A DNA stretch of 20,000 nt from an uncultured virus (IMG/VR IMGVR_UViG_3300032167_006623). Taxonomy: Duplodnaviria > Heunggongvirae > Uroviricota > Caudoviricetes. Both the position numbers and the translations under genes were made by a program. Numbering within the stretch: the stretch's first letter is position 1; each line of letters starts with the position of its first letter. The notes below the pieces were generated by a model. That model had not been told where the DNA came from. It saw only the letters and a list, made by a program, of their open reading frames with translations, and searched no databases. This document shows, piece after piece, positions 2,665 through 19,091 of this stretch. The stretch lies in the IMG/VR virus record IMGVR_UViG_3300032167_006623. One strand, given 5' to 3'.

Positions 2665-2734
2665 GCAAGCGTGACCGCTTGCCGGATTTGTAATAAAAAG
2701 AATAGTCAGCTGTAAAGACGTTAAAACAGAGAAA
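2665..2734 (+). promoter_or_regulatory. Hairpin element plus GTCAGCTG-GACGTTAAAACAGAG leader
   Basis: GCAAGCG tgac CGCTTGC CGG ATTTGTA ATAAAA; leader at 2705-2734. Confidence 0.75.
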
Positions 2735-2747
2735 TGGAGTGTATATC

Positions 2748-2885
2748 ATGTTTGAATATAAGATTTCTTATGAAGAAGCTGTTGAACAGTTTTTAAGCGA
2801 CCATCCTGAATTCTTTCCTACTGATATTGAATACTGTCCTGATGTATTCCGTCAGATGTGCGAAGAAACAGGCTATGTTGCATAA
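2748..2885 (+). CDS. Small acidic protein (45 aa; not in ORF track)
   Basis: MFEYKISYEEAVEQFLSDHPEFFPTDIEYCPDVFRQMCEETGYVA; GGAG RBS after the leader motif. Confidence 0.75.
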   Translation: MFEYKISYEEAVEQFLSDHPEFFPTDIEYCPDVFRQMCEETGYVA

Positions 2886-2889
2886 ACAC

Positions 2890-2928
2890 TCCGTATGTGA
2901 TACGGAAATACTCCGTATTACATACGGA
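2890..2928. repeat. Two TCCGTAT-N3-ATACGGA palindromes
   Basis: Same heptamer as the repeats inside 4661-5647. Confidence 0.7.
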
Positions 2929-2983
2929 TATTACTCTTAAATCTAAAGAAATTCCTTTTAAAAGTTTTTAAGAGGAATTTCTA

Positions 2984-3017
2984 TGCAGATTGAAATCTGC
3001 ACGGGTTTTATTTAAAG
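2984..3017 (+). promoter_or_regulatory. Hairpin-CGG-N7-TTAAAG element
   Basis: TGCAGAT tgaa ATCTGCA CGG GTTTTAT TTAAAG. Confidence 0.7.
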
Positions 3018-3020
3018 CTG

Positions 3021-3123
3021 ATTATTCACTGCGTACAGGCCGACTGTAGTCATCGTAAATGTCAAACAGGAGCAGCAAGTCACGTGTGCGGCACATTTTG
3101 CAGCATTTACCGTAGTGAATGAT
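3021..3123 (+). ncRNA. Putative structured leader RNA
   Basis: ATTATTCACTGCG/CGTAGTGAATGAT closing stem and inner GTAAATG/CATTTAC stem. Confidence 0.45.
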
Positions 3124-3151
3124 TATATAAAAGAAAGGATTGTGTATACTT

Positions 3152-3331
3152 ATGACTACTATTATTGCAATTTTTATGGTTCTTGTTATGGCTGCTGCTA
3201 ATTATGCAGTTTTCAATGCTGATGATGTAATGCTTCTCGAAGGTGAATACGAGGATTATTATGGCCGTGACGAGTCTGAACCAGAGGGTTGGACAGAAGA
3301 GATGGAAAAAGAATATTATGGTCTTGATTGA
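3152..3331 (+). CDS. Small protein with an N-terminal hydrophobic anchor and acidic tail
   Basis: MTTIIAIFMVLVMAAAN...EGEYEDYY; GAAAGGA RBS. Confidence 0.7.
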   Translation: MTTIIAIFMVLVMAAANYAVFNADDVMLLEGEYEDYYGRDESEPEGWTEEMEKEYYGLD

Positions 3332-3345
3332 AAGGAGTAATCACA

Positions 3346-3504
3346 ATGATTGAAGTATCAAAGATGTCCAAGAAAGCACAGAAAGAATATTACAGCAGAC
3401 AGCGTAATACATGGGGTTCTCTCTCCCCTGTTACACGTAAGCCTGCTAAGCCTCAGGCTTACAATCGTGCTAAAATGAAGTCAGCTCTCCGAGCTGACTT
3501 TTAA
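3346..3504 (+). CDS. Small basic protein (52 aa; not in ORF track), possibly ArfA/BrfA-like
   Basis: MIEVSKMSKKAQKEYYSRQRNTWGSLSPVTRKPAKPQAYNRAKMKSALRADF; AAAGGAG RBS. Confidence 0.75.
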   Translation: MIEVSKMSKKAQKEYYSRQRNTWGSLSPVTRKPAKPQAYNRAKMKSALRADF

Positions 3505-3512
3505 TTTTTTTT
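3478..3512 (+). terminator. Intrinsic terminator overlapping the last codons of 3346-3504
   Basis: AAGTCAGCTC tcc GAGCTGACTT TTAATTTTTTTT. Confidence 0.75.
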
Positions 3513-3571
3513 GTGTCTGTTTGTATGTCGTTTTGCATGTACGTATGTATGTCATAATGAATGTCAAAAAT

Positions 3572-3663
3572 AAACACCTGACGGTGTTTCGGATTTATTA
3601 TAAAAGAATTATAATTCTTTCTCCTGATAATAAGCGTGAACGCTTATCGGGTGTTTTTTAAAG
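3572..3663 (+). promoter_or_regulatory. Two tandem hairpin elements upstream of the ncRNA cluster
   Basis: AAACACC tgac GGTGTTT CGG ATTTATT ATAAAA (3572) and ATAAGCG tgaa CGCTTAT CGG GTGTTTT TTAAAG (3630). Confidence 0.75.
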
Positions 3664-3846
3664 AATGAAGTGGGACGATGGTCCATAGCTGTCATTCGCC
3701 GGGTCCGAATTGCCCGTGACAGGCTGCTCCTGTTGAAGAAATGTGTCGCATTCGCAAGCTTGGCAGTGGCTAATTAAGCTTGCAAATTGGTGTTAATGCT
3801 GAATTCGCAGATGAGTTTAACACCGACTGCATCGCAGTATAAACAA
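3663..3846 (+). ncRNA. Structured RNA repeat, copy 1
   Basis: Aligns with 3854-4045, with compensatory stem changes. Confidence 0.6.
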
Positions 3847-3853
3847 GCGATAA

Positions 3854-4045
3854 GAGTGAAGTGGGACGACGGTCCATAGCTGTCACTCGACAGGTACAGA
3901 TTGCCTGAGACAGCGCTCCTGTCTGAATAAGCGTTGCAGCCTTTGTAAGCATAGGCTGAGGAAATAAAGAAGCTTACAAAATTCATAACAGATACTGAAT
4001 CTGCAGGGTAACTCAGTTATGGACTGTTTTTAACAGTATAAACAA
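3854..4045 (+). ncRNA. Structured RNA repeat, copy 2
   Basis: Shared GAAGTGGGACGAYGGTCCATAGCTGTCAYTCG ... GCTCCTGT ... CTGAAT ... CAGTATAAACAA. Confidence 0.6.
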
Positions 4046-4071
4046 CAATCAGGCAGCATGACTGCCGATAT

Positions 4072-4185
4072 GGGAACATAGCTTAGCGGATAAAGCAAGT
4101 CTTTGTAAGGGGTTCAACTCCCCTATCATCAACGGATTTGATACATGGACAGTCTACGCGGGTTCGAATCCTGCTGTTCTCACCA
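4072..4185 (+). tRNA. tRNA-like RNA (114 nt) with no assignable anticodon
   Basis: Acceptor GGGAACA/TGTTCTC+ACCA, D arm GCTT-AGCGGATA-AAGC, T arm GCGGG-TTCGAAT-CCTGC; the anticodon arm is replaced by an expanded branched insert. Confidence 0.75.
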
Positions 4186-4342
4186 GAAGCTGTCAGCAAT
4201 TGCTGCCGTACGGGCAATGGAGTGCGTACGGAGCGCAGACGGCGTCGATTGTGCCTGCATGTGCCGAAATCAGTGCCTCCATGCAGGGCGTCGACTTAAT
4301 TAAGCTCATTACTCATTATATACATTCCTCTCTCTCCTTTCT

Positions 4343-4388
4343 GAATACACCGTATGTGCCCTCCCGCATACGGTGTATTTCTTTTTTT
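4343..4388 (+). terminator. Intrinsic terminator ending the ncRNA cluster
   Basis: GAATACACCGTATGTG ccctcc CGCATACGGTGTATTT CTTTTTTT. Confidence 0.8.
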
Positions 4389-4428
4389 CACATTGAAGCA
4401 TTACATGAAGCTTCAATGTGATATTTTT

Positions 4429-4596
4429 TTTGTATCAATATTGTAACAAAAATGGGTATCTTTTTGTTACAATATTGCACACTGATTTTTATTGTTACAA
4501 TATTGTAACAATAAAAGCACCAAAATTGATACAATTTTGTTACACGAACTTTTTTGCTACAATTTTGTTACAATTTTGGTGCAAAAATTGTTACAC
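4429..4596. repeat. TTGTWACAA repeat array 2
   Basis: Core TTGTAACAAAAATGGGTATCTTTTTGTTACAA at 4441-4472 plus further units. Confidence 0.85.
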
Positions 4597-4598
4597 CC

Positions 4599-4627
4599 TT
4601 GACATTTGGTGACAAATGTATTATAAT
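4599..4627 (+). promoter_or_regulatory. Consensus sigma-A promoter
   Basis: TTGACA-N17-TATAAT, perfect match. Confidence 0.9.
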
Positions 4628-4660
4628 GATACATATATCAAATTATGAAGGATGTGCATC

Positions 4661-5647
4661 ATGGGAAAAACAATAAAAGCAATAGCCGACGAACTCGGCA
4701 TATCCAAACAAGCTGTATACAAGCGTGTTACAGGCAAGCTTAACACCGTATGTGCTCCACATACATATATGGAGAACAACGTCATGTTTCTGGATGAAGA
4801 AGGCGAAGCTATTGTAAAAAATGATTTTAAAAATAAACCATGTGCTACTCCCCTATTTCGTACGGAGCAAATACTTATGTCATATGGAGCTAATACGTCA
4901 CCATATCCAAATCCAACGGTTCCTTACGTACAACATACGGAACAGATACGGAATAACTCCGATAATATGCCTCAAAATCCATACGGAGCACTCCCCTATC
5001 CTACTCCGAATCAATCCATTCAATACGTATCCAATACGGAGCATATCCAAACCACTCCTGTTTCAAATACGGAACACTCCGGCATTCCTATTCAAAACAC
5101 ATACGGAACACCGCAGCAATTCACTCCTAATCCGTATCCCAATCCGTATACGGAGCAATCCGTATCTAATCCTAATATGGATACGCATACGGAGCAAATA
5201 TCAATTCCTGATACGGAGCAAATACAACCGACATACGGAGCTGATACGGAAGATGTGAATTTATTACGTATGCAGCTTGAGGAAATCAAAGAAAAAAACC
5301 ATGAAACTGAGATTGAACTTGTTAAAGCTAATGCTGAAAAAGAGAAATATGAAGAAATAATCAATCAGCTTAACCAAAGACTCAAAGATAAAGATTCACA
5401 AATCATGGAACAGCGTTTGTTAATAGAAAAAACCGACAATGAACGTAAGATTTTAACGGCTTCATTGTTTAGAAACAATGAATTTTTAAGGAAGCTATTG
5501 CAGCTGCCGTTAGCTAAACGTATTTTTGATTGGAAAAATATCCAAAAACGACTGATGACAGAGCAGGATGACATTTCAAATGACATAATAGGGGAATCAG
5601 ATATTGATGTTTCACTATTTGATGAAAATATTAGTAAAAAGGATTGA
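4661..5647 (+). CDS. HTH + low-complexity linker + coiled-coil protein, pSK1 Par / DUF536-like plasmid maintenance protein
   Basis: N-terminus KTIKAIADELGISKQAVYKR (HTH), C-terminal coiled coil ending LAKRIF; GAAGGA RBS. Confidence 0.65.
   Translation: MGKTIKAIADELGISKQAVYKRVTGKLNTVCAPHTYMENNVMFLDEEGEAIVKNDFKNKPCATPLFRTEQILMSYGANTSPYPNPTVPYVQHTEQIRNNSDNMPQNPYGALPYPTPNQSIQYVSNTEHIQTTPVSNTEHSGIPIQNTYGTPQQFTPNPYPNPYTEQSVSNPNMDTHTEQISIPDTEQIQPTYGADTEDVNLLRMQLEEIKEKNHETEIELVKANAEKEKYEEIINQLNQRLKDKDSQIMEQRLLIEKTDNERKILTASLFRNNEFLRKLLQLPLAKRIFDWKNIQKRLMTEQDDISNDIIGESDIDVSLFDENISKKD
4935..5250. repeat. Intragenic ATACGGA iteron array
   Basis: 11 ATACGGA and 3 TCCGTAT copies counted; ATACGGA occurs in all three codon phases. 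Confidence 0.8.
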
Positions 5648-5652
5648 TTGGA

Positions 5653-6012
5653 ATGTTGTTTTATACTCAAAAACATGAAATGAATTATCTATGGTTCTTT
5701 GCAAAAATGCCTCGTGATGTCTATCACAGAGCATTGATTTATTTATTAACCTTGGATGAAGCCTGCTGTGACCATATTTCAGAGATATATGATTTTGAAA
5801 ATCAGCAAATTATTCCTGAAGCATTGACAAAACCTTGGAATACTTCAGTATCCATAAAGACAATGAGGCTTGCTTTTAATCTTTTCACAGGTCATACAAA
5901 TTGGTCTGATGATAAAAGTCCTGATTTATTCAGTCCGGCTGAATTGTTTTGTTCAGAATATATGAAATATTACATTGAAGCAGTTAAAATGCGTTATCCT
6001 GAGTTTATGTAA
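5653..6012 (+). CDS. DUF6075-like protein
   Basis: DVYHRALIYLL..IYDF..PW.TS.S.K..RLAFNLF..ELFCS..RYPE motifs typical of this Clostridial mobile-element family. Confidence 0.7.
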   Translation: MLFYTQKHEMNYLWFFAKMPRDVYHRALIYLLTLDEACCDHISEIYDFENQQIIPEALTKPWNTSVSIKTMRLAFNLFTGHTNWSDDKSPDLFSPAELFCSEYMKYYIEAVKMRYPEFM

Positions 6013-6014
6013 AT

Positions 6015-6047
6015 ACGGTTTTACAACCGTTCGGGGTGTATATAAAA
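6015..6047 (+). promoter_or_regulatory. Hairpin-CGG-N7-ATAAAA element
   Basis: ACGGTT ttac AACCGT t CGG GGTGTAT ATAAAA. Confidence 0.7.
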
Positions 6048-6184: not shown

Positions 6185-6219
6185 CCAAATGCTCAGCATT
6201 TGGCGGATTTATTATAAAA
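6185..6219 (+). promoter_or_regulatory. Hairpin-CGG-N7-ATAAAA element
   Basis: CCAAATGC tca GCATTTGG CGG ATTTATT ATAAAA. Confidence 0.75.
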
Positions 6220-6241: not shown

Positions 6242-6931
6242 ATGAGAATCGCTGATACTATTGATATTTTTAAAGAAACTGCAGACGCTGTGTGTGTTAC
6301 TACAAATGGAATCGTTAAGCGTGACGGTTCAGCTGTAATGGGTGCAGGTATTGCAAGATTGGCTGATGCTAAATATAAGCTTGCATCAAAGCTTGGTGCA
6401 ATGCTTAGAAAATCAGGCAATCATTGCTATGATATGGGTCTTTATGATAATAAGCATATCGTTACTTTTCCAACCAAAAAACATTGGAAAGATATGAGCA
6501 GCATTACGCTCATTAAGCAAAGCTGTCATGAACTTGTAGCTATGGCTGACAAGAACAACTGGAGTAATGTTTTGCTGCCGGCTATAGGCTGTGGTCTTGG
6601 TCAGCTTGATTTTGAGACACAGGTAAAGCCTGCAATCGAGACTATTCTTGATGACAGATTTACAATTTGTTTTCTCACCAACGCCCGCCAGTCTGATAAA
6701 GCAGGGGAGTGTGCTGATAAAAAATTCGAGCATAACGGTTATGTGATTTCCCAGTGCGGAAGCAATCATCATGTTATGATTTCCAAGGATGGAAAGATGG
6801 TATTTCATTCACAGGTTGACCACGATATGAACCGTGAAGAACTCATCAAAGTTTTTGACGGCTATATCGAGCTCACAAAACACATTGATTTTGCCAAAGA
6901 GTTTTACAGAAATGAAGGGAGAATAGATTAA
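6242..6931 (+). CDS. Macrodomain (ADP-ribose binding/hydrolase) protein with extra C-terminal domain
   Basis: TTNG..VMGAGIA, FPTKKHW, LPAIGCGLGQL motifs. Confidence 0.85.
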   Translation: MRIADTIDIFKETADAVCVTTNGIVKRDGSAVMGAGIARLADAKYKLASKLGAMLRKSGNHCYDMGLYDNKHIVTFPTKKHWKDMSSITLIKQSCHELVAMADKNNWSNVLLPAIGCGLGQLDFETQVKPAIETILDDRFTICFLTNARQSDKAGECADKKFEHNGYVISQCGSNHHVMISKDGKMVFHSQVDHDMNREELIKVFDGYIELTKHIDFAKEFYRNEGRID

Positions 6932-8919: not shown

Positions 8920-9114
8920 ATGACCAAAGTAAAATTCTTTTGGAATAATTCACAAGAAGCTCTTGAAGCTGATGTCAATAAATTTATTGAACAGCTTGAG
9001 ATTAAGCATTTTGCCGTGAATGTTGTGAGCATTTCTTATTCTACAAGCAAAACTGTTTCGAATTATCAGATTGACCACCATTGTTGTTTATGCTATCGTT
9101 GTGAAAATATGTAA
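8920..9114 (+). CDS. Small protein, Cse60/DUF2758-like
   Basis: KVKFF....EALEADVNKFI...VVSISYS pattern. Confidence 0.55.
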   Translation: MTKVKFFWNNSQEALEADVNKFIEQLEIKHFAVNVVSISYSTSKTVSNYQIDHHCCLCYRCENM

Positions 9115-9163: not shown

Positions 9164-9634
9164 ATGTCAAAAGTATTTATTTCGGGAACAGCAGGTTTTG
9201 GAACAGGGAATAAACTCACATCACTTCCTCAGCCTGTTATGGATATGCTTATGAAGTTAATCCATGATGGTGATGAAATCCTTGTGGGTGATTGTCAGGG
9301 TGTTGATACTCTTGTTCAGGAAGTCCTTAAGCGAGCTAAATATCCTAATGTAACAGTATATTGCTCAGGTTCTACTTGTCGCAATGTTCTTAATTCAAGT
9401 TGGCCTGTAAAGCATATTCAGGTTCCAAGAGGATACACAGGTAGAGCGTTTTATGCTGTTAAAGATAACGCAATGGCTATAGCTGCTGATTCGGGCATTG
9501 CTATTTGGGACGGCAAGTCTGTTGGTACAGGTAATAACATCAAAAACCTCACTTTCAGAGGCAAAACTGTTACTGTATTCCGTACGGACTTGAATAAAAT
9601 CGAATGTCATCAGCCTAAAACGCTTGGTGAATAA
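9164..9634 (+). CDS. SLOG-superfamily (YspA/DprA-like) nucleotide-binding protein
   Basis: VFISG, VGDCQGVD, KDNAMA..AD, WDGKSVGT motifs. Confidence 0.75.
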   Translation: MSKVFISGTAGFGTGNKLTSLPQPVMDMLMKLIHDGDEILVGDCQGVDTLVQEVLKRAKYPNVTVYCSGSTCRNVLNSSWPVKHIQVPRGYTGRAFYAVKDNAMAIAADSGIAIWDGKSVGTGNNIKNLTFRGKTVTVFRTDLNKIECHQPKTLGE

Positions 9635-10459: not shown

Positions 10460-10885
10460 ATGGCAAGCTTCAGAGGAGAAAAATACTTTTTAAGCAATAT
10501 GTACCCATGTCCTGTGACTATTAAGATTAAAGGTGAGCTTATTACCTTTAAAAGCTCTGAGTCCGTATTTCAGGCACTTCGCAGCCCTGACCGTCTCAGA
10601 GAATTTATTCCGCTCAATGGCTTTGAAGCGAAAAAACACGCTAAAAGCTGTACACGTCGTGCTGATTGGTTTGATGTGAGCCTTGATGTAATGATGTATG
10701 CACTCAGATGCAAATTTACCCAAAATCCTGACCTTGCGGCAAAGCTCATAGCCATTGATGATGACATTGTGGAAATCAATGAATGGCATGATACTTTTTG
10801 GGGCGTTTGTAATGGAGTAGGGGAGAACCATTTGGGCAAATTGCTTATGCAGCTCAGAGACGAGCTTCGAGCAGCGGCTCATTAA
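10460..10885 (+). CDS. NADAR (YbiA-like) family protein
   Basis: FLSNMY, SSESVFQA, KFTQNPDL, E.N.WHDTFWG, GENHLGKLLM.LR. Confidence 0.9.
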   Translation: MASFRGEKYFLSNMYPCPVTIKIKGELITFKSSESVFQALRSPDRLREFIPLNGFEAKKHAKSCTRRADWFDVSLDVMMYALRCKFTQNPDLAAKLIAIDDDIVEINEWHDTFWGVCNGVGENHLGKLLMQLRDELRAAAH

Positions 10886-11587: not shown

Positions 11588-11607
11588 AAATTTTCACTTC
11601 ATGGCAA

Positions 11608-11674
11608 GCAGTTGCTTGTAACTGCCAGAATTTCAATAAAATAGTCAGCTGTAAAGACGTTAAAAACAGAGAAA
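11608..11674 (+). promoter_or_regulatory. Hairpin element plus GTCAGCTG leader
   Basis: GCAGTTG cttg TAACTGC CAG AATTTCA ATAAAA; leader at 11644. Confidence 0.7.
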
Positions 11675-11687: not shown

Positions 11688-11918
11688 ATGGCTTATGTAT
11701 CTGAAGAACAGTATAACTACATTCGCAACAATCGTGACATCATTGACGGTTGTCTTAATCGCATTGCTGTTACCGATGAACCCGCTGAAATTGAACAGCA
11801 GCTTGAAACCCTCAAGCATTACATCGAACAGTATGCCGAGCGCAATCGTGAACGAATTCGAGGTGAATTCAAGCCTGAACCCATTCGTTCAATCTCTGAT
11901 GACGGTCTTGATTTTTAA
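11688..11918 (+). CDS. Small protein ending SDDGLDF
   Basis: GAGGA RBS; terminator at about 11923-11950. Confidence 0.8.
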   Translation: MAYVSEEQYNYIRNNRDIIDGCLNRIAVTDEPAEIEQQLETLKHYIEQYAERNRERIRGEFKPEPIRSISDDGLDF

Positions 11919-11951: not shown

Positions 11952-12130
11952 ATATCACTCACGTGATATCGGATTTATATTAAAAAATAACGTTGAAAAC
12001 AATCATGAATGATTGTCGGAAATGTTATAAACAATAATTTTTCCGAAAAATAATGACTGAAAACAGTCATCGGGAAAGTTATAAAAGAACCACGAAAAAC
12101 AGTTTCACAACTGTCGGAATGGTAATAAAA
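11952..12130 (+). promoter_or_regulatory. Four tandem hairpin elements
   Basis: Copies at 11952, 11999, 12053 and 12099, each with a different stem but the same CGG-N7-WTAAA. Confidence 0.8.
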
Positions 12131-12706: not shown

Positions 12707-12769
12707 ACAGACTCCGTCTGTCTGATTTTCAATAAAATAGTCAGCTGTAAAGACGTTAAAACAGAGAAA
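12707..12769 (+). promoter_or_regulatory. Hairpin element plus GTCAGCTG leader
   Basis: ACAGAC tcc GTCTGT CTG ATTTTCA ATAAAA; leader at 12740. Confidence 0.7.
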
Positions 12770-12782
12770 CGGAGAGAATACT

Positions 12783-13154
12783 ATGAGAAATTTTGAAAAT
12801 ATGGAAGCAATTGCAACAGAAATCGAAGCAATTATTTCAAGAGAAGGGGAGTATCAGAATGAAAATATTGATACCAATGCACCTCTTTTCTTACAGATTG
12901 CAAGAAATACACAGGACAAAAAGGCTGTGATTGAACACATAACAGCTGCATTGACTAACGATAAGCATGAAATTGATGAAATCTATCATTATCTTGAATA
13001 TAGTGAAGATGAAATAGCATCTGATTACGAGTTTGAAAAGCATACAAACAACAATGTATCAGATGAAACAGCTAATCGTTTTGCAGCAATAGAACGCATA
13101 ATCACAGCTGTTGAGGATTGTGGTAAGAAGCTTCTTGCCACAATTTCTGAATAA
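12783..13154 (+). CDS. Acidic hypothetical protein
   Basis: GGAG RBS; hairpin terminator follows. Confidence 0.8.
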   Translation: MRNFENMEAIATEIEAIISREGEYQNENIDTNAPLFLQIARNTQDKKAVIEHITAALTNDKHEIDEIYHYLEYSEDEIASDYEFEKHTNNNVSDETANRFAAIERIITAVEDCGKKLLATISE

Positions 13155-13216
13155 AACAATCAAAAAAAACTAATCAGAAGCTCACGCTTCTGATTAGTTT
13201 TCCATAGTCTCTGACA

Positions 13217-13289
13217 GCAAGCGTGACCGCTTGCCGGATTTGCAATAAAAAGAATAATTGTCAGCTGTAAAGACGTTAAAACAGAGAAA
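13217..13289 (+). promoter_or_regulatory. Hairpin element plus GTCAGCTG leader
   Basis: Near-identical to 2665-2734. Confidence 0.75.
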
Positions 13290-13301: not shown

Positions 13302-13604
13302 ATGTTTGTTATTTTTGTAAAAAATTTCATCGCAAAATGCGTAGTTTTCAATGCACTTAAGTCATACATTGACAATGAAACAGCTGTTGCTCTTCGCAAG
13401 AAAGCCCGTGAACAGTGTGATTCAGGCGAATTTGTACTTGACACATTTGTTGAAGTAGAAGAATGGAATAAGATTCTGCTTGCTTATAACCCTAAGACTA
13501 AGGCAGAACAGACCGTTCGTGAAGCAATGCTCAGAAGTGTCACAAACGAAATCGAAGATGTCAAGTGTATAGAGCTTGACTGGCGTTATGCTTGTATGGA
13601 TTAA
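13302..13604 (+). CDS. Hypothetical protein (paralog of 12178-12474)
   Basis: GAGGA RBS; alignable with its paralog. Confidence 0.8.
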   Translation: MFVIFVKNFIAKCVVFNALKSYIDNETAVALRKKAREQCDSGEFVLDTFVEVEEWNKILLAYNPKTKAEQTVREAMLRSVTNEIEDVKCIELDWRYACMD

Positions 13605-13618
13605 GAAAGGATGGGACT

Positions 13619-14014
13619 ATGAAAAATTTTACTACAACGGCTAAAATGAGCTATGATGAACTCAAAGGGGTGTTCCCTATGGAAGAAAGCTTCACTGTCA
13701 ACAATATTGATATTGAATATCTTGGCATCACCTTTGACGGTGAAATGGCTTATGAATTTGATGGTCTTATTGTTGACAGAGACCGCCTTTTGGAGCTGAT
13801 TTATGCAATGTGTCTTGCTGATGACATCATGCTTGATAAAGGCGTTCTGCTCACAGAAGCCACTGAAACTGATGATTTCAGCTTTATTGAAGAACTTCAG
13901 AAGCTTGTTTCAAAGCTTGAAACATTTGAATTCTGTCAGCCAAGAACAGAAGCTCTGGATGAAATTATCAGACTTGCCAGAAAATATGACAGAATACCAT
14001 CTGTCGAATTGTAA
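13619..14014 (+). CDS. Acidic hypothetical protein
   Basis: AAAGGA RBS; terminator at about 14021-14055. Confidence 0.8.
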   Translation: MKNFTTTAKMSYDELKGVFPMEESFTVNNIDIEYLGITFDGEMAYEFDGLIVDRDRLLELIYAMCLADDIMLDKGVLLTEATETDDFSFIEELQKLVSKLETFEFCQPRTEALDEIIRLARKYDRIPSVEL

Positions 14015-14072
14015 CAAATAAAAATCAGAAGCGAAAAAGGCTTCTGATTTTTTATTTTAAGCCTTACGGCAA

Positions 14073-14145
14073 GCAGTTGTGAACAACTGCCGGGATTTCA
14101 ATAAAAAGAACAATTGTCAGCTGCAAAGACGTTAAAACAGAGAAA
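14073..14145 (+). promoter_or_regulatory. Hairpin element plus GTCAGCTG leader
   Basis: GCAGTTG tgaa CAACTGC CGG GATTTCA ATAAAA; leader at 14116. Confidence 0.75.
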
Positions 14146-14156
14146 TGAGGAAATGT

Positions 14157-14567
14157 ATGTATACTTTTAAAATTGAAAATATGACCAAGGATGCAATTCT
14201 TGAAGCAATGATTGCTGCTTATAACGAACACAAGGGTCGTTTTGCAATCAAGCTTTCCGAAGAAGAAACAGCTTTCGTCAGAGCTTTTGAATACAAGCCT
14301 GACCACAAAGACTGTGAATGGTTCTTTGTAGACGGTACTGAGTATCCATGGGTAAGCGATGATAGTCTTGAAAAGCTTGCTGGTTACTTTGCAAACTATA
14401 GCAAAGAAAAGGCAGAGCTTGCTGAAGAAAAGGCTAAGCTCAGAGCTTATGCAGAGGAACTTAAGGCAATTACTGATAAAAATTCCGAAGAATACCGTGA
14501 AAAATTCGGATATTACAGTGATTGGCATAAGGACCTGTACGGCAGACGTCCCAGAAACATCATATGA
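14157..14567 (+). CDS. Hypothetical protein with C-terminal YSDWHKDLYGRRPR motif
   Basis: GAGGA RBS; terminator at about 14574-14611. Confidence 0.8.
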   Translation: MYTFKIENMTKDAILEAMIAAYNEHKGRFAIKLSEEETAFVRAFEYKPDHKDCEWFFVDGTEYPWVSDDSLEKLAGYFANYSKEKAELAEEKAKLRAYAEELKAITDKNSEEYREKFGYYSDWHKDLYGRRPRNII

Positions 14568-14664
14568 TAAAATAGCCTGTCAGTTTGATAACTGACAGGT
14601 TTTATTTTTTTCTTGAATGTCAAACTTCGATGCCTTTTTAGTATGCCTGTCTTGATGTCAAAAG

Positions 14665-14874
14665 AAACACCTGACGGTGTTTCGGATTTATTATAAAGAG
14701 TTACGATAAAACAAACAAAAATGTTTGTCGGTTGTAATTCAAAAGATACGATAAAACAAACAGGAATGTTTGTCGGTTGTGTCTTAAAGAAATGCCGATG
14801 TTGCGAACGGGGTCTGCTTGACAGATGTCCAGCTCATAATGCAATCAAGAATGATTGCCGGTGTTTTAAGAAAG
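14665..14874 (+). promoter_or_regulatory. Four hairpin elements upstream of the ssb leader
   Basis: Copies at 14665 (same as 3572), 14711, 14756 and 14841. Confidence 0.75.
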
Positions 14875-14893
14875 GAAATGTAATAAGTGAGAA

Positions 14894-14996
14894 GTAGGTT
14901 CCTGCAGGGATGTTCATACCTACATAAACAAGTTACATTAACATTCTTCGATAGTTAATCCTGAAAGTGAGTTCCTGTCTGGCGATTCATACTCAC
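14894..14996 (+). ncRNA. Two covarying 30-nt stem-loops in the ssb leader
   Basis: GTAGGT-TCCTG-N8-TTCAT-ACCTAC and GTGAGT-TCCTG-N8-TTCAT-ACTCAC. Confidence 0.5.
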
Positions 14997-15089
14997 ACAC
15001 AAAAGAGTAAGCTATCATGTACGTCATAAACATAGGGCGGTGTTACATGCCGCCCAAAAATTAAAAACAATTTTTTGGAGGTAATCTAT

Positions 15090-15512
15090 ATGAACATGAA
15101 CAACTTTTCCGTACTCAGAGGACGTCTTACTGCTGACCCTGCAATCTTTAACAACAAAGATGGCTCCAGCAAGGTAAAGTTCACCATCGCTTGTGAAAAC
15201 AACTATAAGAACAAGGAAGGTAAGCGCGACGTTCAGATGATTCCCGTTGAAGCTTTTGTTAAGGCTGATTACGACAAGTCTCCTTTCGCAAAGATTCACA
15301 AGGGCGACAAGGTAAGCGTTGAGTGTTCGCTCAGAACAAACAACTATGAGAAGGACGGTCAGATGGTTTACTCCACTGTAGTCTTCGTTGAAGGCATTCA
15401 GTTCGAGGAAAGCAAGTCCGTTACTGATGCACGTCTTGCGGCAAGAGACGCAGACGCTGCAACAGCTGCTGCTGCAACAATTGCAGAAGCTCCTGCTGAG
15501 GCTCAGGCATAA
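15090..15512 (+). CDS. ssb: Single-stranded DNA-binding protein lacking the canonical acidic tip
   Basis: N...LRGRLTADP, KFTIA, KGDKVSVE..LRTNNYEKDG OB-fold motifs; GGAGG RBS. Confidence 0.9.
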   Translation: MNMNNFSVLRGRLTADPAIFNNKDGSSKVKFTIACENNYKNKEGKRDVQMIPVEAFVKADYDKSPFAKIHKGDKVSVECSLRTNNYEKDGQMVYSTVVFVEGIQFEESKSVTDARLAARDADAATAAAATIAEAPAEAQA

Positions 15513-15571: not shown

Positions 15572-15592
15572 CAACAGCTCGCAAGCTCGCAG

Positions 15593-15626: not shown

Positions 15627-15655
15627 TATTGAAATAAAAAAAGGAGAAATGTATT

Positions 15656-16033
15656 ATGTCAACAATAACAGGTTTTATAGGGATAACCGATATAGGAGCC
15701 ATTTTTGTAAACTTGGAACACACCATTTCTGTCTCTGATAATGGAACAACACAAGAACATATTGATGAATTATTTGAAATATGTCAAGAAATATGTGAAG
15801 ACGAAGTTGAAACCATTTACTGTATATTTGACAGTAAAATCGACCTTGACACATGTGAAATCATAATATCTGACGGTTCATATGAAAATGGAACAGAACG
15901 GATAAACGACAATGCTATGTATGTTTACAGTGAAGAATATGCTGATTTCATAGCAAGTGTATCCGCAACTCTTGAAAATGGAGAAGAATTCTTCAAAGAT
16001 TTGAATGAAAATTACTTATCCTTTGACTATTGA
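15656..16033 (+). CDS. Highly acidic protein (DNA-mimic candidate)
   Basis: Very D/E-rich with almost no K/R; AAGGAG RBS. Confidence 0.8.
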   Translation: MSTITGFIGITDIGAIFVNLEHTISVSDNGTTQEHIDELFEICQEICEDEVETIYCIFDSKIDLDTCEIIISDGSYENGTERINDNAMYVYSEEYADFIASVSATLENGEEFFKDLNENYLSFDY

Positions 16034-16201
16034 TTCTGCTATCAATCAATTTTTGACAAATCAGACACGTTTCGTGTCTGATTTTGTTTTCTTATTCTCA
16101 GATTAAAATGTAGTTGCAATCTTCAAGGGGATGGGGCGGTCTCATCGCCGCAGTTGTAATGAGCTACCGAGTACCTCATTACAACAATAGCTTCCGTTTT
16201 C

Positions 16202-16230
16202 TTGACGTGCCTCATAATCTGATATATACT
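16202..16230 (+). promoter_or_regulatory. Possible sigma-A promoter
   Basis: TTGACG-N17-TATACT. Confidence 0.5.
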
Positions 16231-16317
16231 CAAAACAGCAACATTTGTTTCTGTTACTATATATAACCTACACGTCCCTGTAAATAATGATTTACAGGGA
16301 GAAGACCTTAAACCTAA

Positions 16318-16352
16318 TCTGACCTGTTCGGTCAGACGGTTTTTCAATAAAA
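16318..16352 (+). promoter_or_regulatory. Hairpin-CGG-N7-ATAAAA element
   Basis: TCTGACC tgttc GGTCAGA CGG TTTTTCA ATAAAA. Confidence 0.75.
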
Positions 16353-16373
16353 CTTGAAAGGATATGTTGATTT

Positions 16374-16658
16374 ATGAAAGAACCCGGATTTGTCAAAGAA
16401 GCTCGTGAATATGGTATGTCAGAAAGAGACATTGATTTCTTGAAATCAGTATACGAGCGTCATAAGAAAATAAACTCAGATGATAATGACTGTGAGCGAT
16501 TTTGCAAAACAGCAATACAAGAGGATATTCATCCTGATGATATTGCTCCAGCTGTTGCTTTGATTGAAAAACACCGTCATGCTTCTCGTAATAACGATAA
16601 GTCTTTTGATATCAATGACCTAAAGAAGCAGTTGCAGAAAGACTCTGCGACAAAATAA
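16374..16658 (+). CDS. Hypothetical protein
   Basis: GAAAGGA RBS. Confidence 0.75.
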   Translation: MKEPGFVKEAREYGMSERDIDFLKSVYERHKKINSDDNDCERFCKTAIQEDIHPDDIAPAVALIEKHRHASRNNDKSFDINDLKKQLQKDSATK

Positions 16659-16687
16659 TAATAAAACACTGAAAGGAAATGATTATT

Positions 16688-17011
16688 ATGCCAATAATAA
16701 GAAAATGTATTCATCTCTCAAGTGATGAAAAAGTAATGCTTACAAAAGCCGTAACGAACATTATTGATGAGTGTCTCATTGGAACAGATAGTGACATGTA
16801 TGATATTTACAGACATATCATTGTTAAGCTTGATGCGCTCACAATCAAACCTGCCCGTATACCGGGTCATATTGAAGAGCATTATTCTCTGGACATTGTT
16901 GGCGGTGAATACGACAGCTGTCTTTTTGCACTCAGCAATTTTGCTGACAACACAGACATGCTTCAGACTAAAATTCGCAATGCACCGAATGTTTGCGAAA
17001 AATATATCTGA
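16688..17011 (+). CDS. Hypothetical protein
   Basis: GAAAGGA RBS; terminator at about 17038-17072. Confidence 0.75.
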   Translation: MPIIRKCIHLSSDEKVMLTKAVTNIIDECLIGTDSDMYDIYRHIIVKLDALTIKPARIPGHIEEHYSLDIVGGEYDSCLFALSNFADNTDMLQTKIRNAPNVCEKYI

Positions 17012-17264
17012 CTTTTTAAGTAACCTATATGTAAATAAAAATCAGCTGCTCACGCAGCTGATTTTTCTTTTTGATAACTGTGAAACCATAGCAAGTCTTT
17101 CAGACTATTGCAGCTTTGCTGCAGTATAATTTGTCTCCGTGCGGAGCTTCCCGGTCACAGACCAGTTCAGCACCGCCATTCCGCCAAATTATATCCACAG
17201 CTTTATAAAACTTATTATGTGACAAGAACCAATCCAATCAGAAACGTTGTTTCAATACCCAATA

Positions 17265-17298
17265 ACGAGCCTGACGGCTCGTCGGGTATCAAATAAAA
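17265..17298 (+). promoter_or_regulatory. Hairpin-CGG-N7-ATAAAA element
   Basis: ACGAGCC tgac GGCTCGT CGG GTATCAA ATAAAA. Confidence 0.75.
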
Positions 17299-17330
17299 AG
17301 CTTATTTGCTTAAATCGGAGGAAATGTAAT

Positions 17331-17537
17331 ATGTTTATTATCAACTTAATCAAAGCATTGGTTATCGGTATTCATGATGAAATGAAATGGAATGGTCAGA
17401 ACCTCAAGAATGCTATTCTTGAAGAATACTACATGATTAAAAATGTAATGGGTCTTGACCTTTACGTTAAATACATGAATGGCACTGCTGTTGAAGGCGT
17501 TGACTATTTTGAAAATATCGACCATGTTTGCTGTTAA
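17331..17537 (+). CDS. Hypothetical protein
   Basis: GGAGG RBS; terminator follows. Confidence 0.75.
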   Translation: MFIINLIKALVIGIHDEMKWNGQNLKNAILEEYYMIKNVMGLDLYVKYMNGTAVEGVDYFENIDHVCC

Positions 17538-17750
17538 TGATGAACCCGGACGCATTTGCGTCTGGGTTTTTCTTTTTCTTGACCCGTAATTTAATATCTC
17601 GTGACTATCTCGTGAAATCAACACGATATTCACAAAATAAGCAAAAGATATCAAATTTCATTTTTATATGAATAACGTTTTGTTCTAATACAATAATACA
17701 AGTCCTTTTGGGGACTTATTCTTTTGTATTAAAATTGCAATTCTTGCAAA

Positions 17751-17783
17751 ATGCCCCTGCGGGGCATCGGATTTGCAATAAAA
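17751..17783 (+). promoter_or_regulatory. Hairpin-CGG-N7-ATAAAA element
   Basis: ATGCCCC tgc GGGGCAT CGG ATTTGCA ATAAAA. Confidence 0.75.
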
Positions 17784-17811
17784 ATTCTATATTGAAAGGA
17801 AAAGAGAATAA

Positions 17812-18054
17812 ATGTTACAGGAATACGCTGAAATCAGAAACAGAATAGGGGAGCCACGTTATAATGAAATAACTGCATTTCTTGACGCCAATCCTGAATT
17901 TGATTTATCCGATGTATACTACAATCCATATGTTCACGCCATGAGTGTTCAGTGGGCAAGAAATACATTCGGAAAAACAGTATACGACGAGACTGACAAC
18001 GGTCTCTACAAATTCGATATCGTTGCTGACGACGGCGACGACTTACCGTTTTGA
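17812..18054 (+). CDS. Small protein with an SSB-like C-terminal tip (DDGDDLPF)
   Basis: Paralog of 18070-18312 with an added acidic tail. Confidence 0.8.
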   Translation: MLQEYAEIRNRIGEPRYNEITAFLDANPEFDLSDVYYNPYVHAMSVQWARNTFGKTVYDETDNGLYKFDIVADDGDDLPF

Positions 18055-18069
18055 AAGGAGAAATAAACA

Positions 18070-18312
18070 ATGACTGTTATCAACGCTTATGAAAATATCA
18101 AAAACGAAATCGGACAGAACCGATTAAATGAAATGTGGGCTTATCTTCATGCTAACCCAAATCGTATGTTTTCTGATATTTTCTATAACAAAGAAATCCA
18201 TGCAGAAAGCATCCAGTGGGCTAAGGATACACTTGGTTTCACATATGCTTCCGATGATGAATTTGAAATCATCTCCGCCGAACTTGCAAAGGTCAACGAA
18301 ATATGTGCTTGA
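18070..18312 (+). CDS. Small protein (paralog of 17812-18054)
   Basis: Y..I.N.IG..R.NE...L.ANP....SD..YN...HA.S.QWA..T.G shared. Confidence 0.8.
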   Translation: MTVINAYENIKNEIGQNRLNEMWAYLHANPNRMFSDIFYNKEIHAESIQWAKDTLGFTYASDDEFEIISAELAKVNEICA

Positions 18313-18328
18313 GAAAGGAATAATATTT

Positions 18329-18703
18329 ATGAAAAAATATGAACTTGTTGAAACATTTACTTTTGTACTTTATGACAACGTGTCTGTAACAAAGTCTACC
18401 AAAACTGCTGACCTCGGTAGAATGGTACCAAAACATTTTATTGTACCATGCAATGACCCTGAAAACAAATATTCAAACGGAGAATACACAGATGGTTACT
18501 CCGATGGTACACATAGCGAATATTGCTTCTGTTTTGATAATCTGCTTGATTGTTACACACATTGTCAATTTGATAAGACCAGATGGTCTGAAATCAATAT
18601 CGACAAACTTGATGAAGCAGACAAACTTCTTGCACAGCAGATACTCAATAAGATTGCTGAATCAAATGATTGTTTTCCACAGCAGTTGTCCAAGACCATC
18701 TAA
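18329..18703 (+). CDS. Hypothetical protein
   Basis: GAAAGGA RBS. Confidence 0.75.
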   Translation: MKKYELVETFTFVLYDNVSVTKSTKTADLGRMVPKHFIVPCNDPENKYSNGEYTDGYSDGTHSEYCFCFDNLLDCYTHCQFDKTRWSEINIDKLDEADKLLAQQILNKIAESNDCFPQQLSKTI

Positions 18704-18889
18704 ACCTCATATTCCGATTTAAGCCATCAGCTTAAGTCGGAATTTTTTCTGCTTTTAACAAAGCAGCGGGTTGTGTACAAAGGATAAGAAATACGCCAAC
18801 ACATTCTCACAAAAGGTCTCAACCTACGGGTTGAGATTTTTTTATTTATAATACGACAACATTTATTGCTATTTTCGATTTCTAAGATA

Positions 18890-19091
18890 ACGCTCCTTAC
18901 GGAGCGTCGGGATTCCAATAAAGAAACCCAATAGCAAGTTCACAGATGCTGTAAACGATGTTGTCATCAGAACTTGTCTTGATTTCTTGAAATTTGCTCT
19001 CGGGGAGCAAACAGAGTTCCAATAAACGAGTCTGAAAGGCTTGTTACTTACAAACCCATCTGTCAGCTGAAAAGACGTTAAAACAGAGAAA
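18890..19091 (+). promoter_or_regulatory. Two hairpin elements plus GTCAGCTG leader
   Basis: ACGCTCC ttac GGAGCGT CGG GATTCCA ATAAAG (18890); TTTGCTC tcggg GAGCAAA CAG AGTTCCA ATAAAC (18993); leader at 19062. Confidence 0.7.

What the first reader, a model, noticed from the sequence alone, without database searches (positions are those of the whole stretch)
2705..19091. Six-copy 30-nt leader GTCAGCTGNAAAGACGTTAAAACAGAGAAA directly before RBSs
Seen at 2705, 11644, 12740, 13260, 14116 and 19062, always downstream of a hairpin element and immediately upstream of the SD of unrelated small genes. It is near-invariant while its flanks diverge. It can be drawn as a minimal H-type pseudoknot (GUC/GAC, with loop CUG pairing to CAG after GUUAAAA). 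Inference: a shared RNA element (translation enhancer, 5' stabiliser, or protein or ligand-binding site) that co-regulates a gene subset. A DNA operator is the alternative.
Basis: partly seen in the sequence, partly recalled or inferred. Interest (0 to 1): 0.7.

Follow-up and report, generated by a model that had tools for sequence, protein, structure and literature searches.

The report
Tiny pseudoknot leader on phage mRNAs
A 30-base block repeated six times in this phage DNA folds, as RNA, into a very small knot-like structure directly in front of the ribosome-binding site of unrelated genes; the same device occurs in many unrelated gut phages, so it is probably a shared, still unexplained booster or switch for phage protein production.

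Summary
The 30-mer occurs exactly five times, and a sixth copy carries one extra A; chance expects 0. All six copies are on the + strand, and each ends 11-13 nt before the start codon of an unrelated small gene.

Diverged copies in other phage contigs keep both helices through compensatory changes. S1 appears as GUC/GAC, GAC/GUC, GAG/CUC, GGG/CCC, GCG/CGC, AAG/CUU and AAC/GUU. The outer S2 pair appears as C-G, A-U and G-C. On 40 distinct rows, 96.6% of cells pair against 69.6% when shuffled (0/500 shuffles).

A scan that left those positions free returned 123 matches. Full pairing and an SD+ATG context coincide (34/6 against 5/78, p=6e-19).

The element sits between a promoter and the SD. It occurs in at least six mutually unrelated phage lineages, probably of gut Bacillota. 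It is not in Rfam 15, not a preQ1-I member, was not found by BLAST in the cultured-phage collection, and its sequence string is not in the searched literature.

Function is unresolved. My best guess (0.42) is a ligand-independent leader acting with the host ribosome and mRNA-decay machinery. A protein operator and a riboswitch remain open.

The parts
2705..2734 (+). Pseudoknot leader copy 1: S1 2705-2707 with 2717-2719; S2 2710-2712 with 2727-2729; tail AGAAA 2730-2734
   Evidence: Exact match; helices as counted
11644..11674 (+). Pseudoknot leader copy 2, with one extra A in loop 3: S1 11644-11646 with 11656-11658; S2 11649-11651 with 11667-11669
   Evidence: D4; CM hit of 40.9 bits. A related strain in DNA run X7 lacks the extra A (table 4)
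12740..12769 (+). Pseudoknot leader copy 3
   Evidence: Exact match; CM hit of 49.7 bits
13260..13289 (+). Pseudoknot leader copy 4
   Evidence: Exact match; CM hit of 49.7 bits
14116..14145 (+). Pseudoknot leader copy 5 (C at position 9)
   Evidence: Exact match. A metatranscriptome contig spans 14108-14335, so it starts 8 nt upstream and runs through the element (one low-depth contig)
19062..19091 (+). Pseudoknot leader copy 6 (A at position 9)
   Evidence: Exact match
2665..2704 (+). Hairpin 2665-2682 plus box CGGATTTGTAATAAAAAGAATA: the promoter-like element upstream of copy 1
   Evidence: (D5, D7, D8)
11604..11643 (+). Hairpin plus box AGAATTTCAATAAAATA upstream of copy 2
   Evidence: D6
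12707..12739 (+). Hairpin 12707-12721 plus box CTGATTTTCAATAAAATA upstream of copy 3
   Evidence: (D6)
13217..13259 (+). Hairpin 13217-13234 plus box CGGATTTGCAATAAAAAGAATAATT upstream of copy 4
   Evidence: (D5)
14073..14115 (+). Hairpin 14073-14090 plus box CGGGATTTCAATAAAAAGAACAATT upstream of copy 5
   Evidence: The RNA contig's left end at 14108 falls right after AATAAAAA
18993..19030 (+). Hairpin plus box (..GTTCCAATAAACGAG), 31 nt upstream of copy 6
2748..2885 (+). 45-aa ORF served by copy 1; no family match
11688..11918 (+). 76-aa ORF served by copy 2; no family match
12783..13154 (+). 123-aa acidic ORF served by copy 3; no family match; terminator at 13164-13203
13302..14014 (+). 100-aa and 131-aa ORFs served by copy 4; no family match; terminator at 14020-14052
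14157..14567 (+). 136-aa ORF served by copy 5; no family match; terminator at 14574-14601
19105..19254 (+). 49-aa ORF served by copy 6 (the in-frame ATG at 19099 lies too close to the SD); no family match

Best explanation
The 30-mer is the DNA template of a very small H-type RNA pseudoknot that forms most of the 5' untranslated leader of a subset of phage transcription units.

Its anatomy is as follows:
- S1, 3 bp (positions 1-3 with 13-15)
- loop 1, AG
- S2, 3 bp (positions 6-8 with 23-25)
- loop 2, (N)UAAA
- loop 3, NUUAAAA
- a purine tail AGAAA that runs into the Shine-Dalgarno sequence

Shown here: the structure, its position in the leader, and its spread across phages.

Inferred: it is a portable, gene-independent leader module that works without a dedicated phage factor or metabolite. 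The compact knot occupies the short stretch between the 5' end and the ribosome-binding site. It sits at a fixed 5-7 nt from the core SD, where it would lie on the 30S platform. In this way it sets translation initiation, shields the 5' end of the mRNA from the host's decay enzymes, or does both. In Bacillota those enzymes are the 5' exonuclease RNase J1 and RNase Y. The result is standardised expression of whatever gene is placed behind it.
For: STRUCTURE
- On 40 distinct rows, 96.6% of 235 cells pair against 69.6% in shuffles. The covariation score is 0.584 against 0.143 (0/500 shuffles), and slid controls reach at most 0.176.
- Pair types: 1-16 GC33/AU5; 2-15 AU20/UA14/GC4/CG1; 3-14 CG25/GC13; 6-26 CG16/AU15/GC5/UG1. 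The smaller set gives the same picture.
- Two IMG/VR scans left S1 and pair 6-26 free. Of 123 matches, 34 of the 40 with an SD+start context are fully paired, against 5 of the 83 without it (p=6e-19).

RNA RATHER THAN DNA
- The two helices cross, and there is one U-G pair.
- All copies have the orientation of the gene.
- The distance to the SD is fixed, but the distance to upstream promoter-like motifs is not: 0-31 nt in the window and 5-39 nt in G002-like phages.

IN THE 5' UTR
- In other phages a TATAAT-like -10 ends 2-34 nt before S1, most often 11 nt (10 of the 30 members with a detectable hexamer).
- In contig L153 the copies follow TTGACA-17-TATAAT promoters.
- One RNA-library contig starts 8 nt before copy 5 and runs through it.

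NO DEDICATED PHAGE FACTOR OR GENE CLASS
- The carriers are mutually unrelated. An all-against-all blastp of ORFs links only G001 with G002. The two complete genomes G002 (231 kb) and G005 (75 kb) share only HNH/NUMOD4 endonucleases and one other ORF.
- None of the window's 38 ORFs hits G001 or G002.
- Downstream genes are unrelated and mostly without a family.

HOST LINK
- Two carrier contigs lie in Bacillota/Clostridium MAGs.
- The tail AGAAA is complementary to the 16S 3' end ..CCUCCUUUcu read from two genomes of that order.

PRECEDENT
- In B. subtilis, 5' structures plus bound ribosomes stabilise mRNAs against RNase J1 (abstract of PMC5737220; titles in the reference list of PMC3997798).
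Against: - No experiment or 5'-end mapping supports it. The RNA evidence is one low-depth contig from a library that may contain DNA.
- The knot is thermodynamically feeble on its own: either hairpin is about -1.5 kcal/mol, and 351 of 1000 shuffles are as stable. A mechanical block or a constitutive fold would more simply be built with longer stems.
- Helices held strictly at 3+3 bp, with near-invariant loops, look like a precise binding pocket, which favours a ligand or a protein.
- In the window, PK-bearing genes do not have stronger SD pairing than the other genes (-9.8 against -10.4 kcal/mol).
- In most members the tail needs a mismatch or bulge to pair together with the core SD. The idea that the knot stacks flush on an extended SD helix is therefore only partly supported, and it is partly circular, because AGAA was in the search patterns.
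- Some copies are internal or tandem rather than 5'-terminal (L153 8977, 9463).
- Blastp at 1e-5 cannot exclude a small, fast-evolving shared RNA-binding protein.
Confidence: 0.42

Rival explanations
1. The pseudoknot is an operator for a trans-acting RNA-binding protein, either phage-encoded or a host protein. Binding stabilises the knot next to the SD and represses, or activates, a regulon of leader-bearing genes. This would resemble T4 RegA or gp32, or S15 on rpsO.
For: - Near-invariant loops with freely covarying stems are typical of protein or ligand sites.
- The fold is marginally stable and needs a partner.
- Only a subset of the window's units carries it: 6 copies against at least 15 hairpin+box elements.
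- Tandem copies exist.
- The element sits at a fixed distance from the SD.
- T4 precedents for shutting off many early mRNAs at their initiation regions come from passages of PMC3014915.
Against: - No protein family is shared by the carriers at blastp E<=1e-5 apart from HNH endonucleases and one ORF with a domain shared with large ORFs of G001 and G002 (not annotated further).
- No window ORF hits G001 or G002.
- Only fragments of most genomes were held.
- A host protein would be expected to have sites in host genomes. None was seen in 185,579 species genomes with the block-B pattern (2 genuine hits of 72, both on small phage-like MAG contigs). None was seen among 150 other genomes of one order either.
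Confidence: 0.23
2. The pseudoknot is a miniature riboswitch: an aptamer of about 26 nt with the topology of preQ1-I but a different pocket. It would sense a small molecule and thereby gate translation of leader-bearing phage genes. Candidate ligands are a nucleobase-like metabolite, a host-state signal or a defence second messenger.
For: - The topology and loop lengths match those described for preQ1-I in PMC11625349 (passages): an H-type knot, a 2-nt L1, a 4-6-nt L2 directly before the 3' strand of P1, an A-rich L3, and a position next to the SD.
- The loops and the junction-proximal S2 pairs are invariant.
- The fold is marginal without a partner.
- Tandem arrangement occurs, as in some riboswitches.
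Against: - There is no expression platform. The SD is outside the knot, and no general anti-SD exists.
- Downstream genes are unrelated and mostly of unknown function, with no metabolic theme.
- No convincing copy was found on a bacterial chromosome in what was searched, which is unusual for a riboswitch.
- P1 is only 3 bp.
- The cytosine specificity base of preQ1-I is replaced by an A in 39 of 40 rows.
Confidence: 0.18
3. The block is a DNA site: an operator, a promoter for a phage RNA polymerase, or a recombination hotspot that shuffles gene cassettes. Its conservation would then reflect DNA recognition or recent exchange rather than RNA structure.
For: - CAGCTG is a palindrome.
- The block lies next to promoter-like elements.
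- DNA run X7 gives contigs that join the leader of one unit to the gene of another (loose ends at 12774 and 13259). These could be recombinants or assembly ambiguities at a repeat.
- HNH homing endonucleases are the only proteins shared by several carriers.
Against: - Compensatory changes preserve two crossing helices, which has no meaning in duplex DNA.
- The element is spaced from the SD, not from the promoter.
- It follows three different promoter types: hairpin+box, an AT-rich TTAATATG type, and sigma-A TTGACA/TATAAT.
- There are only 1-6 copies per genome of 75-231 kb, which is too few for a general promoter.
- Recent exchange cannot explain the diverged, covarying copies.
Confidence: 0.04

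Closest known systems
preQ1-I riboswitch (Rfam RF00522)
   Same: Both are very small H-type pseudoknots in a 5' UTR next to the SD. Shared features are a short L1, an L2 of 4-6 nt immediately before the 3' strand of P1, an A-rich L3, and a 3-bp P2 formed with the 3' tail (features read in passages of PMC11625349; ours).
   Different: - No cmscan hit to RF00522 or any other family at the element, even at E<=10.
- RF00522 finds nothing in genome G006, which holds at least 14 copies.
- P1 is 3 bp, not the 5 bp I recall for preQ1-I.
- The base before the 3' strand of P1 is A, not the specificity cytosine.
- L1 is AG, not U-containing.
- The SD is not inside the knot.
- The genes served are not queuosine genes.
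T4 post-transcriptional control of early mRNAs (RegA operators, RegB sites, gene 32 leader pseudoknot)
   Same: Phage cis-elements in translation-initiation regions that put many unrelated early mRNAs under one control. Gene 32 uses a 5' pseudoknot upstream of its RBS (PMC3014915 passages; PMC10690425 passage).
   Different: - RegA sites are unstructured and overlap the AUG.
- RegB cuts GGAG itself.
- The gene 32 knot serves one gene, the ssb. The window's SSB gene (15090-15512) has no copy.
- No homologue of these proteins was seen in the window.
5' mRNA stabilisers of Bacillus (aprE leader stem-loop plus RBS, STAB-SD, SP82 polypurine, hbs)
   Same: A 5'-proximal structure and/or a strong ribosome-binding site close to the 5' end that protects mRNA from 5'-to-3' decay in Bacillota (abstract of PMC5737220; titles in the reference list of PMC3997798).
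   Different: Those are simple hairpins or SD-like tracts of single genes. This element is a covarying pseudoknot with invariant loops, reused before many genes and across phages. No stability data exist for it.
PeSL (promoter-early stem-loop) cassettes of T4-type phages
   Same: Repeated promoter plus stem-loop modules flanking small, unrelated, shuffled genes in hyperplastic phage regions. The window's hairpin+box elements look like this.
   Different: PeSLs are DNA and promoter modules thought to mediate shuffling. The leader here is a separate module, downstream of the promoter, with RNA covariation.

Membership tests
preQ1-I riboswitch (RF00522) | Scores against the family covariance model | tested here: not met
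   No hit at any copy with cmscan at E<=10 on the window or on 12 short carrier loci. RF00522 gave 0 of 101 genomes over cut-off and no hit in G006, which holds at least 14 copies
preQ1-I riboswitch (RF00522) | H-type pseudoknot with an A-rich 3' tail | tested here: met
   Both helices covary; L3 is NUUAAAA
preQ1-I riboswitch (RF00522) | Cytosine specificity base directly before the 3' strand of P1 (UC or AC; PMC11625349 passages) | tested here: not met
   Column 13 of A4 is A in 39 of 40 rows and G in one; never C
preQ1-I riboswitch (RF00522) | Association with queuosine biosynthesis or transport genes | tested here: not met
   Downstream ORFs have no such Pfam or PHROG match
preQ1-I riboswitch (RF00522) | SD partly or wholly inside the knot (expression platform) | tested here: not met
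   The core SD starts 5-7 nt after S2
Any Rfam 15 family | Match to a curated covariance model | tested here: not met
   nothing at the element
T4 gene 32-type autoregulatory leader | Lies upstream of the phage ssDNA-binding protein gene | tested here: not met
   The SSB gene at 15090-15512 has no copy; the six copies precede other ORFs
Type III toxin-antitoxin RNA antitoxin (ToxI-like; features recalled) | Tandem array of pseudoknot repeats directly upstream of an endoribonuclease toxin gene | tested here: inconclusive
   Tandem copies exist only in L153 (2-3 units), and the ORFs behind them have no Pfam or PHROG match. Most copies are single and precede unrelated genes. PADLOC was not searched
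Sigma-70-type or phage-RNAP promoter | Fixed distance to the transcription start, many copies per genome, no need for RNA pairing | tested here: not met
   Consensus -10 hexamers lie upstream of it. There are 1-6 copies per genome of 75-231 kb. Crossing helices covary

The most novel reading that the evidence does not exclude
The element is the smallest natural ligand-sensing aptamer yet seen, about 26 nt with 3+3 bp. It would be a phage-borne riboswitch class with a preQ1-I-like fold but an adenine in place of the specificity cytosine. It would read a host-state or infection signal, such as a nucleobase derivative or a defence second messenger, and gate a regulon of small early or anti-host genes across many gut phages.
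Probability: 0.15. Interest if true: 0.95.

Novelty: new variant of a known kind. Interest (0 to 1): 0.72.

Why it matters
Structured 5' leaders are known for single genes, such as riboswitches, r-protein leaders and T4 gene 32. This one differs in three ways. It is a 26-31-nt pseudoknot. It is reused as a portable cassette in front of unrelated genes. It is shared by phage lineages that otherwise have nothing in common.

If it acts through the host ribosome or the host decay machinery, it would show how phages of Gram-positive gut bacteria privilege their own mRNAs. It would also give synthetic biology a minimal 5' UTR insulator or enhancer for Bacillota.

If it binds a protein or a small molecule, it defines a new regulon marker for phage genes of unknown function, many of them small and acidic. 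It would possibly also be the smallest natural aptamer.

It also provides a sequence tag for finding one class of phage transcription units in metagenomes.

Tried and rejected
RELATIVES OF THE WINDOW
- Megablast of the whole window against INPHARED: no match.
- No whole genome is held for the window.
- The search for related loci with the 328-aa ORF: no relatives.
- The 17-nt box motif in IMG/VR gave 7 single hits, which I take as chance.

PARTNERS AND PAIRING
- Pairing partner for the leader inside the window: the best duplex, in the SSB coding region, is -23.7 kcal/mol. Twenty shuffled leaders reached -23.3, so this is not significant.
- Extended SD idea: the tail is complementary to the 16S 3' end. 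However, the members were selected with AGAA in the pattern, most need a mismatch or bulge, and PK genes of the window have no stronger SD than the others. I kept this only as a partial point. My 'contiguous' classifier was faulty (54 of 54 flagged) and I do not use it.

WIDER SEARCHES
- Strict 24-nt pattern in 185,579 species genomes: 0 hits.
- Block-B pattern in the same genomes: 72 hits, 2 genuine.
- CM R1 over 151 genomes of G006's order: strong hits only in G006's own contig. The 16 weak hits (22-30 bits, in 14 other genomes) are mostly coding or lack an SD. One, L157, pairs fully but lies before a tRNA-like sequence.
- The 1-nt-linker scan of IMG/VR: 66 matches, of which only 3 are genuine, all in G001 or G002.
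- The scan that left S2 free: 35 matches, 1 genuine. It therefore gave no unbiased test of the two inner S2 pairs.
- BLAST of two leader types against cultured phages: the Staphylococcus jumbo-phage, Streptococcus satellite and Enterococcus phiSHEF16 hits are only AT-rich RBS regions without the knot.

LITERATURE
- The sequence string occurs in no paper.
- Word searches returned no description of it in their listings or in the three papers I opened from them.
- Supplements of PMC10690425 hold no occurrence in the 6 files searched; 3 files were not searched.

SEQUENCING RUNS AND EARLIER FINDINGS
- Parts of the window region without RNA-contig cover in X15, X23 and X24 are not used as evidence.
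- The search of earlier findings returned nothing.

Full report
OBSERVATION

The pattern GTCAGCTGNAAAGACGTTAAAACAGAGAAA matches exactly at 2705, 12740, 13260, 14116 and 19062. All five matches are on the + strand, and no match appeared in 200 dinucleotide shuffles. A sixth copy at 11644-11674 has one extra A in the A-run and is grouped with the others by the repeat finder (family D4).

Identity stops sharply at both ends. Only position 9 varies among the six copies. Each copy is followed within 0-2 nt by GGAG, GAGG or AGGAG and by an ATG 11-13 nt after the last A.

The six ORFs behind the copies (45-136 aa) are unrelated to each other and have no Pfam or PHROG match.

SETTING

The window looks like an accessory or early region of a lytic phage.
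- It has about 38 short + strand ORFs with SDs.
- It has 64 terminator-like sites where 12.4 are expected.
- It encodes RNase H, SSB, macro, NADAR and DUF6075 proteins.
- It has no relative in INPHARED, and no genome is held for it.

A second, much commoner repeat precedes most genes. It is a hairpin of variable sequence followed by CGG(A/G)TTTnnAATAAAA. A regex gives 15 hits (families D5-D9). Five of the six leaders begin right after such a box; the sixth begins 31 nt after one. The 30-mer is therefore a separate module inserted between a promoter-like element and the SD in a subset of units.

THE SAME BLOCK IN OTHER PHAGES

Exact or near-exact copies occur in several other sequences:
- IMG/VR contigs G001 (85.7 kb), G002 (231 kb, terminal repeats, 6 copies), G003 (33 kb), G004 (76 kb) and G005 (75 kb, terminal repeats)
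- four metagenome contigs
- two small contigs binned into Bacillota/Clostridium MAGs

In every case the block lies directly before an SD and ATG of a different gene, and the flanks are unrelated.

These phages are not relatives of each other. An all-against-all blastp of their ORFs links only G001 with G002 (27 ORFs). The other pairs share HNH/NUMOD4 homing endonucleases and a few other ORFs (G004 and G005 share two; G002 shares one each with G003 and G004). None of the window's 38 ORFs hits G001 or G002.

The promoter-like sequence upstream differs by phage: hairpin+box in the window, and an AT-rich ..TTAATATG motif 5-39 nt upstream in G002-like contigs. The spacing to the SD is constant. The block therefore belongs to the ribosome-binding region, not to the promoter.

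STRUCTURE

On its own the 30-mer is not predicted to fold stably. Its MFE is -1.5 kcal/mol, and 351 of 1000 shuffles are as stable. The window's six copies carry no informative variation.

Variation came from contig L153 (14 kb, 28% GC, inside a Bacillota MAG). It holds at least 14 diverged copies. Most of them lie a few nucleotides after a consensus TTGACA-17-TATAAT promoter, and some are in tandem.
- S1: GUC/GAC becomes GAC/GUC, AAC/GUU or AAG/CUU.
- The outer S2 pair: C-G becomes A-U or G-C.

On a MAFFT alignment of 21 distinct rows, 96.8% of cells pair. The covariation score is 0.408 against 0.130 in shuffles (0/500), and slid controls reach at most 0.159.

I then scanned IMG/VR with two patterns that fix only loop and tail letters and leave S1 and pair 6-26 free. 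The scans returned 57 and 66 matches.
- Matches with an SD-plus-start context: 34 of 40 are fully paired.
- Matches without that context: 5 of 83 are fully paired (Fisher p=6e-19). Three of those five are evident members whose SD my regex missed.

New S1 types appear in these matches: GAG/CUC, GGG/CCC and GCG/CGC.

On 40 distinct rows, 96.6% of 235 cells pair against 69.6% shuffled. The covariation score is 0.584 against 0.143 (0/500), and slid controls reach at most 0.176. All three S1 pairs and pair 6-26 show two to four pair types.

Rows and their selection:
- The 40 rows include two probable non-members that passed the context filter and were kept.
- Identical sequences were entered once.
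- Copy 11644 was left out of A2 and A4 because MAFFT misplaced its extra A.
- L153:8941 and L153:10224 are in A2, where a misplaced gap counts against S1, but not in A4.
- L153:1406, 6731, 8977 and 9463 have other loop lengths and are in neither alignment. Read by eye they also pair; 1406 has S2 as GAG/CUC, shifted by one.

Caveats:
- Pairs 7-25 and 8-24 never vary, but they were fixed by the pattern in 23 of the 40 rows. The scan that freed them found only one member.
- Many variant rows come from few contigs, so the number of independent events is smaller than the cell counts suggest.

ANATOMY
- S1, 3 bp
- L1, AG
- S2, 3 bp
- L2, (N)UAAA; 4 nt in the window type and 5 nt in most others
- S1', the 3' strand of S1
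- L3, 7 nt, NUUAAAA
- S2', the 3' strand of S2
- AGAAA, then the core SD 0-1 nt later in 29 of 34 scan members, and the start codon 7-14 nt after the tail

In the SD-distal tandem copies the AGAAA tail is not kept. The tail therefore belongs to the ribosome-binding region.

The tail is complementary to the 16S 3' end ..CACCUCCUUUcu, read from two genomes of the order that holds L153. In most members a mismatch or bulge separates it from the core SD. PK genes of the window have no stronger SD than the other genes.

WHERE TRANSCRIPTION STARTS

In the IMG/VR members a TATAAT-like hexamer ends 2-34 nt before S1, most often 11 nt (10 of the 30 with a detectable hexamer). By the usual spacing, this puts the start a few nucleotides upstream of the knot.

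In the window there is one metatranscriptome contig, of low depth and from one study, spanning 14108-14335. It begins right after the AATAAAAA box, 8 nt before copy 5. Other RNA-library contigs end at the terminators (12478, 14015), while a DNA run reads through.

These are weak hints. They come from contigs, not reads, and such libraries can hold DNA.

In the related strain of DNA run X7 the extra A of copy 2 is absent. The listed differences lie in the flanks, but that table was truncated.

WHAT IT IS NOT
- No Rfam 15 family matches at the element at E<=10, either on the window or on 12 short carrier loci.
- RF00522 (preQ1-I) finds nothing in G006 or over its cut-off in 101 genomes of that order.
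- The base before the 3' strand of P1 is A, not the cytosine that defines preQ1 recognition (PMC11625349 passages).
- Bacterial chromosomes do not seem to use it. The strict pattern gave 0 hits, and the block-B pattern gave 2 genuine hits of 72 in 185,579 species genomes, both on small phage-like contigs. Among 151 genomes of one order, only G006's contig scored strongly.
- BLAST against cultured phages gave only RBS-like look-alikes.
- The sequence string is in no searched paper.
- Word searches gave no description of it in their listings or in the three papers I opened from them.
- The IMG/VR catalogue of candidate structured RNAs (PMC10690425) does not show it in the six supplementary files that could be searched; three could not.

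MECHANISM

Shown: this is an RNA-level H-type pseudoknot in the leader, at a fixed distance from the SD. It is portable between genes and shared by unrelated phages that use different promoters.

Inferred: because the carriers share no evident protein and the genes served have no common theme, the common partner is most simply the host, namely its ribosome and its mRNA-decay enzymes. I therefore favour a ligand-independent leader that fills the short space between the 5' end and the ribosome-binding site. It would help or standardise initiation and/or shield the 5' end (0.42).

The feeble helices and invariant loops argue for a binding pocket instead. A protein operator (0.23) and a miniature riboswitch (0.18) therefore remain serious rivals. 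A DNA site is unlikely (0.04).

VERDICT

The element is a new RNA family of a known general kind, a cis-acting 5'-UTR pseudoknot, with an unusual multi-gene, cross-phage use. Its function is untested.

Noticed in passing
window 556, 1342, 1474, 2683, 10422, 11970, 12115, 13235, 14091, 15611, 16337, 17283, 17768, 18908 (starts of the CGG box); also 3572-3600, 3630-3660, 6185-6215, 14664-14700, 14841-14875: A hairpin whose stem sequence varies from copy to copy is followed by CGG(A/G)TTTnnAATAAAA and, 3-17 nt later, by an SD. This is the commonest repeat of the window and the only conserved sequence between terminators and genes, so it is probably this phage's promoter type. A hairpin-dependent promoter would be unusual. 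RNA-library contig left ends at 12093, 14108 and 14705/14709 fall 17-22 nt after the hairpins.
   Followed up: partly
window 290-490, 4420-4600, 19300-19550: Arrays of an 11-bp-periodic repeat (TGTTACAAAATT / TGGTGCAATTT variants), up to 13 units per family (D1-D3). Each array sits in a non-coding stretch after a terminator. The arrays are iteron-like or a phased protein-binding array; their function is unknown.
   Followed up: no
window 4072-4182 (+), and 3661-3722 / 3852-3913: A tRNA-like sequence scores 43.2 bits against RF00005 (gathering score 29). It has a 25-nt insertion in the anticodon loop and a long variable region, and ARAGORN calls nothing. Upstream lie two 62-nt repeats that are 84% alike (D14), in a 1.1-kb stretch without convincing ORFs.
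   Followed up: partly
window 14600-15090: A long non-coding stretch lies before the SSB gene. It holds three to four hairpin+CGG units and a 45-nt tandem repeat (14696-14735 / 14741-14780). RNA-library contigs of two studies begin inside the repeat, within its GATAAAAC motif (14705, 14709, 14754), and have the highest depth of the laid region. This may be an abundant non-coding RNA or a long SSB leader.
   Followed up: no
L153 (G006:C107) 8941-9055 and 9463-9540: Two or three pseudoknot units stand in tandem before one ORF. The second set lies right after the stop codon of the previous ORF, with no promoter between them, so the element also occurs inside polycistronic RNAs.
   Followed up: partly
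window 6242-6931 and 10460-10885: Macro-domain and NADAR-domain ORFs, both ADP-ribose processing, lie in the same region. This hints at a counter-defence or ADP-ribosylation theme among the neighbouring genes.
   Followed up: no
DNA run X7 laid on window 12727-13276: Contigs of a related strain join the leader of one unit to the gene or upstream region of another unit: loose ends match the surroundings of the copies at 2705 and 19062 (table 7). This is either cassette shuffling at the repeat or assembly ambiguity.
   Followed up: no
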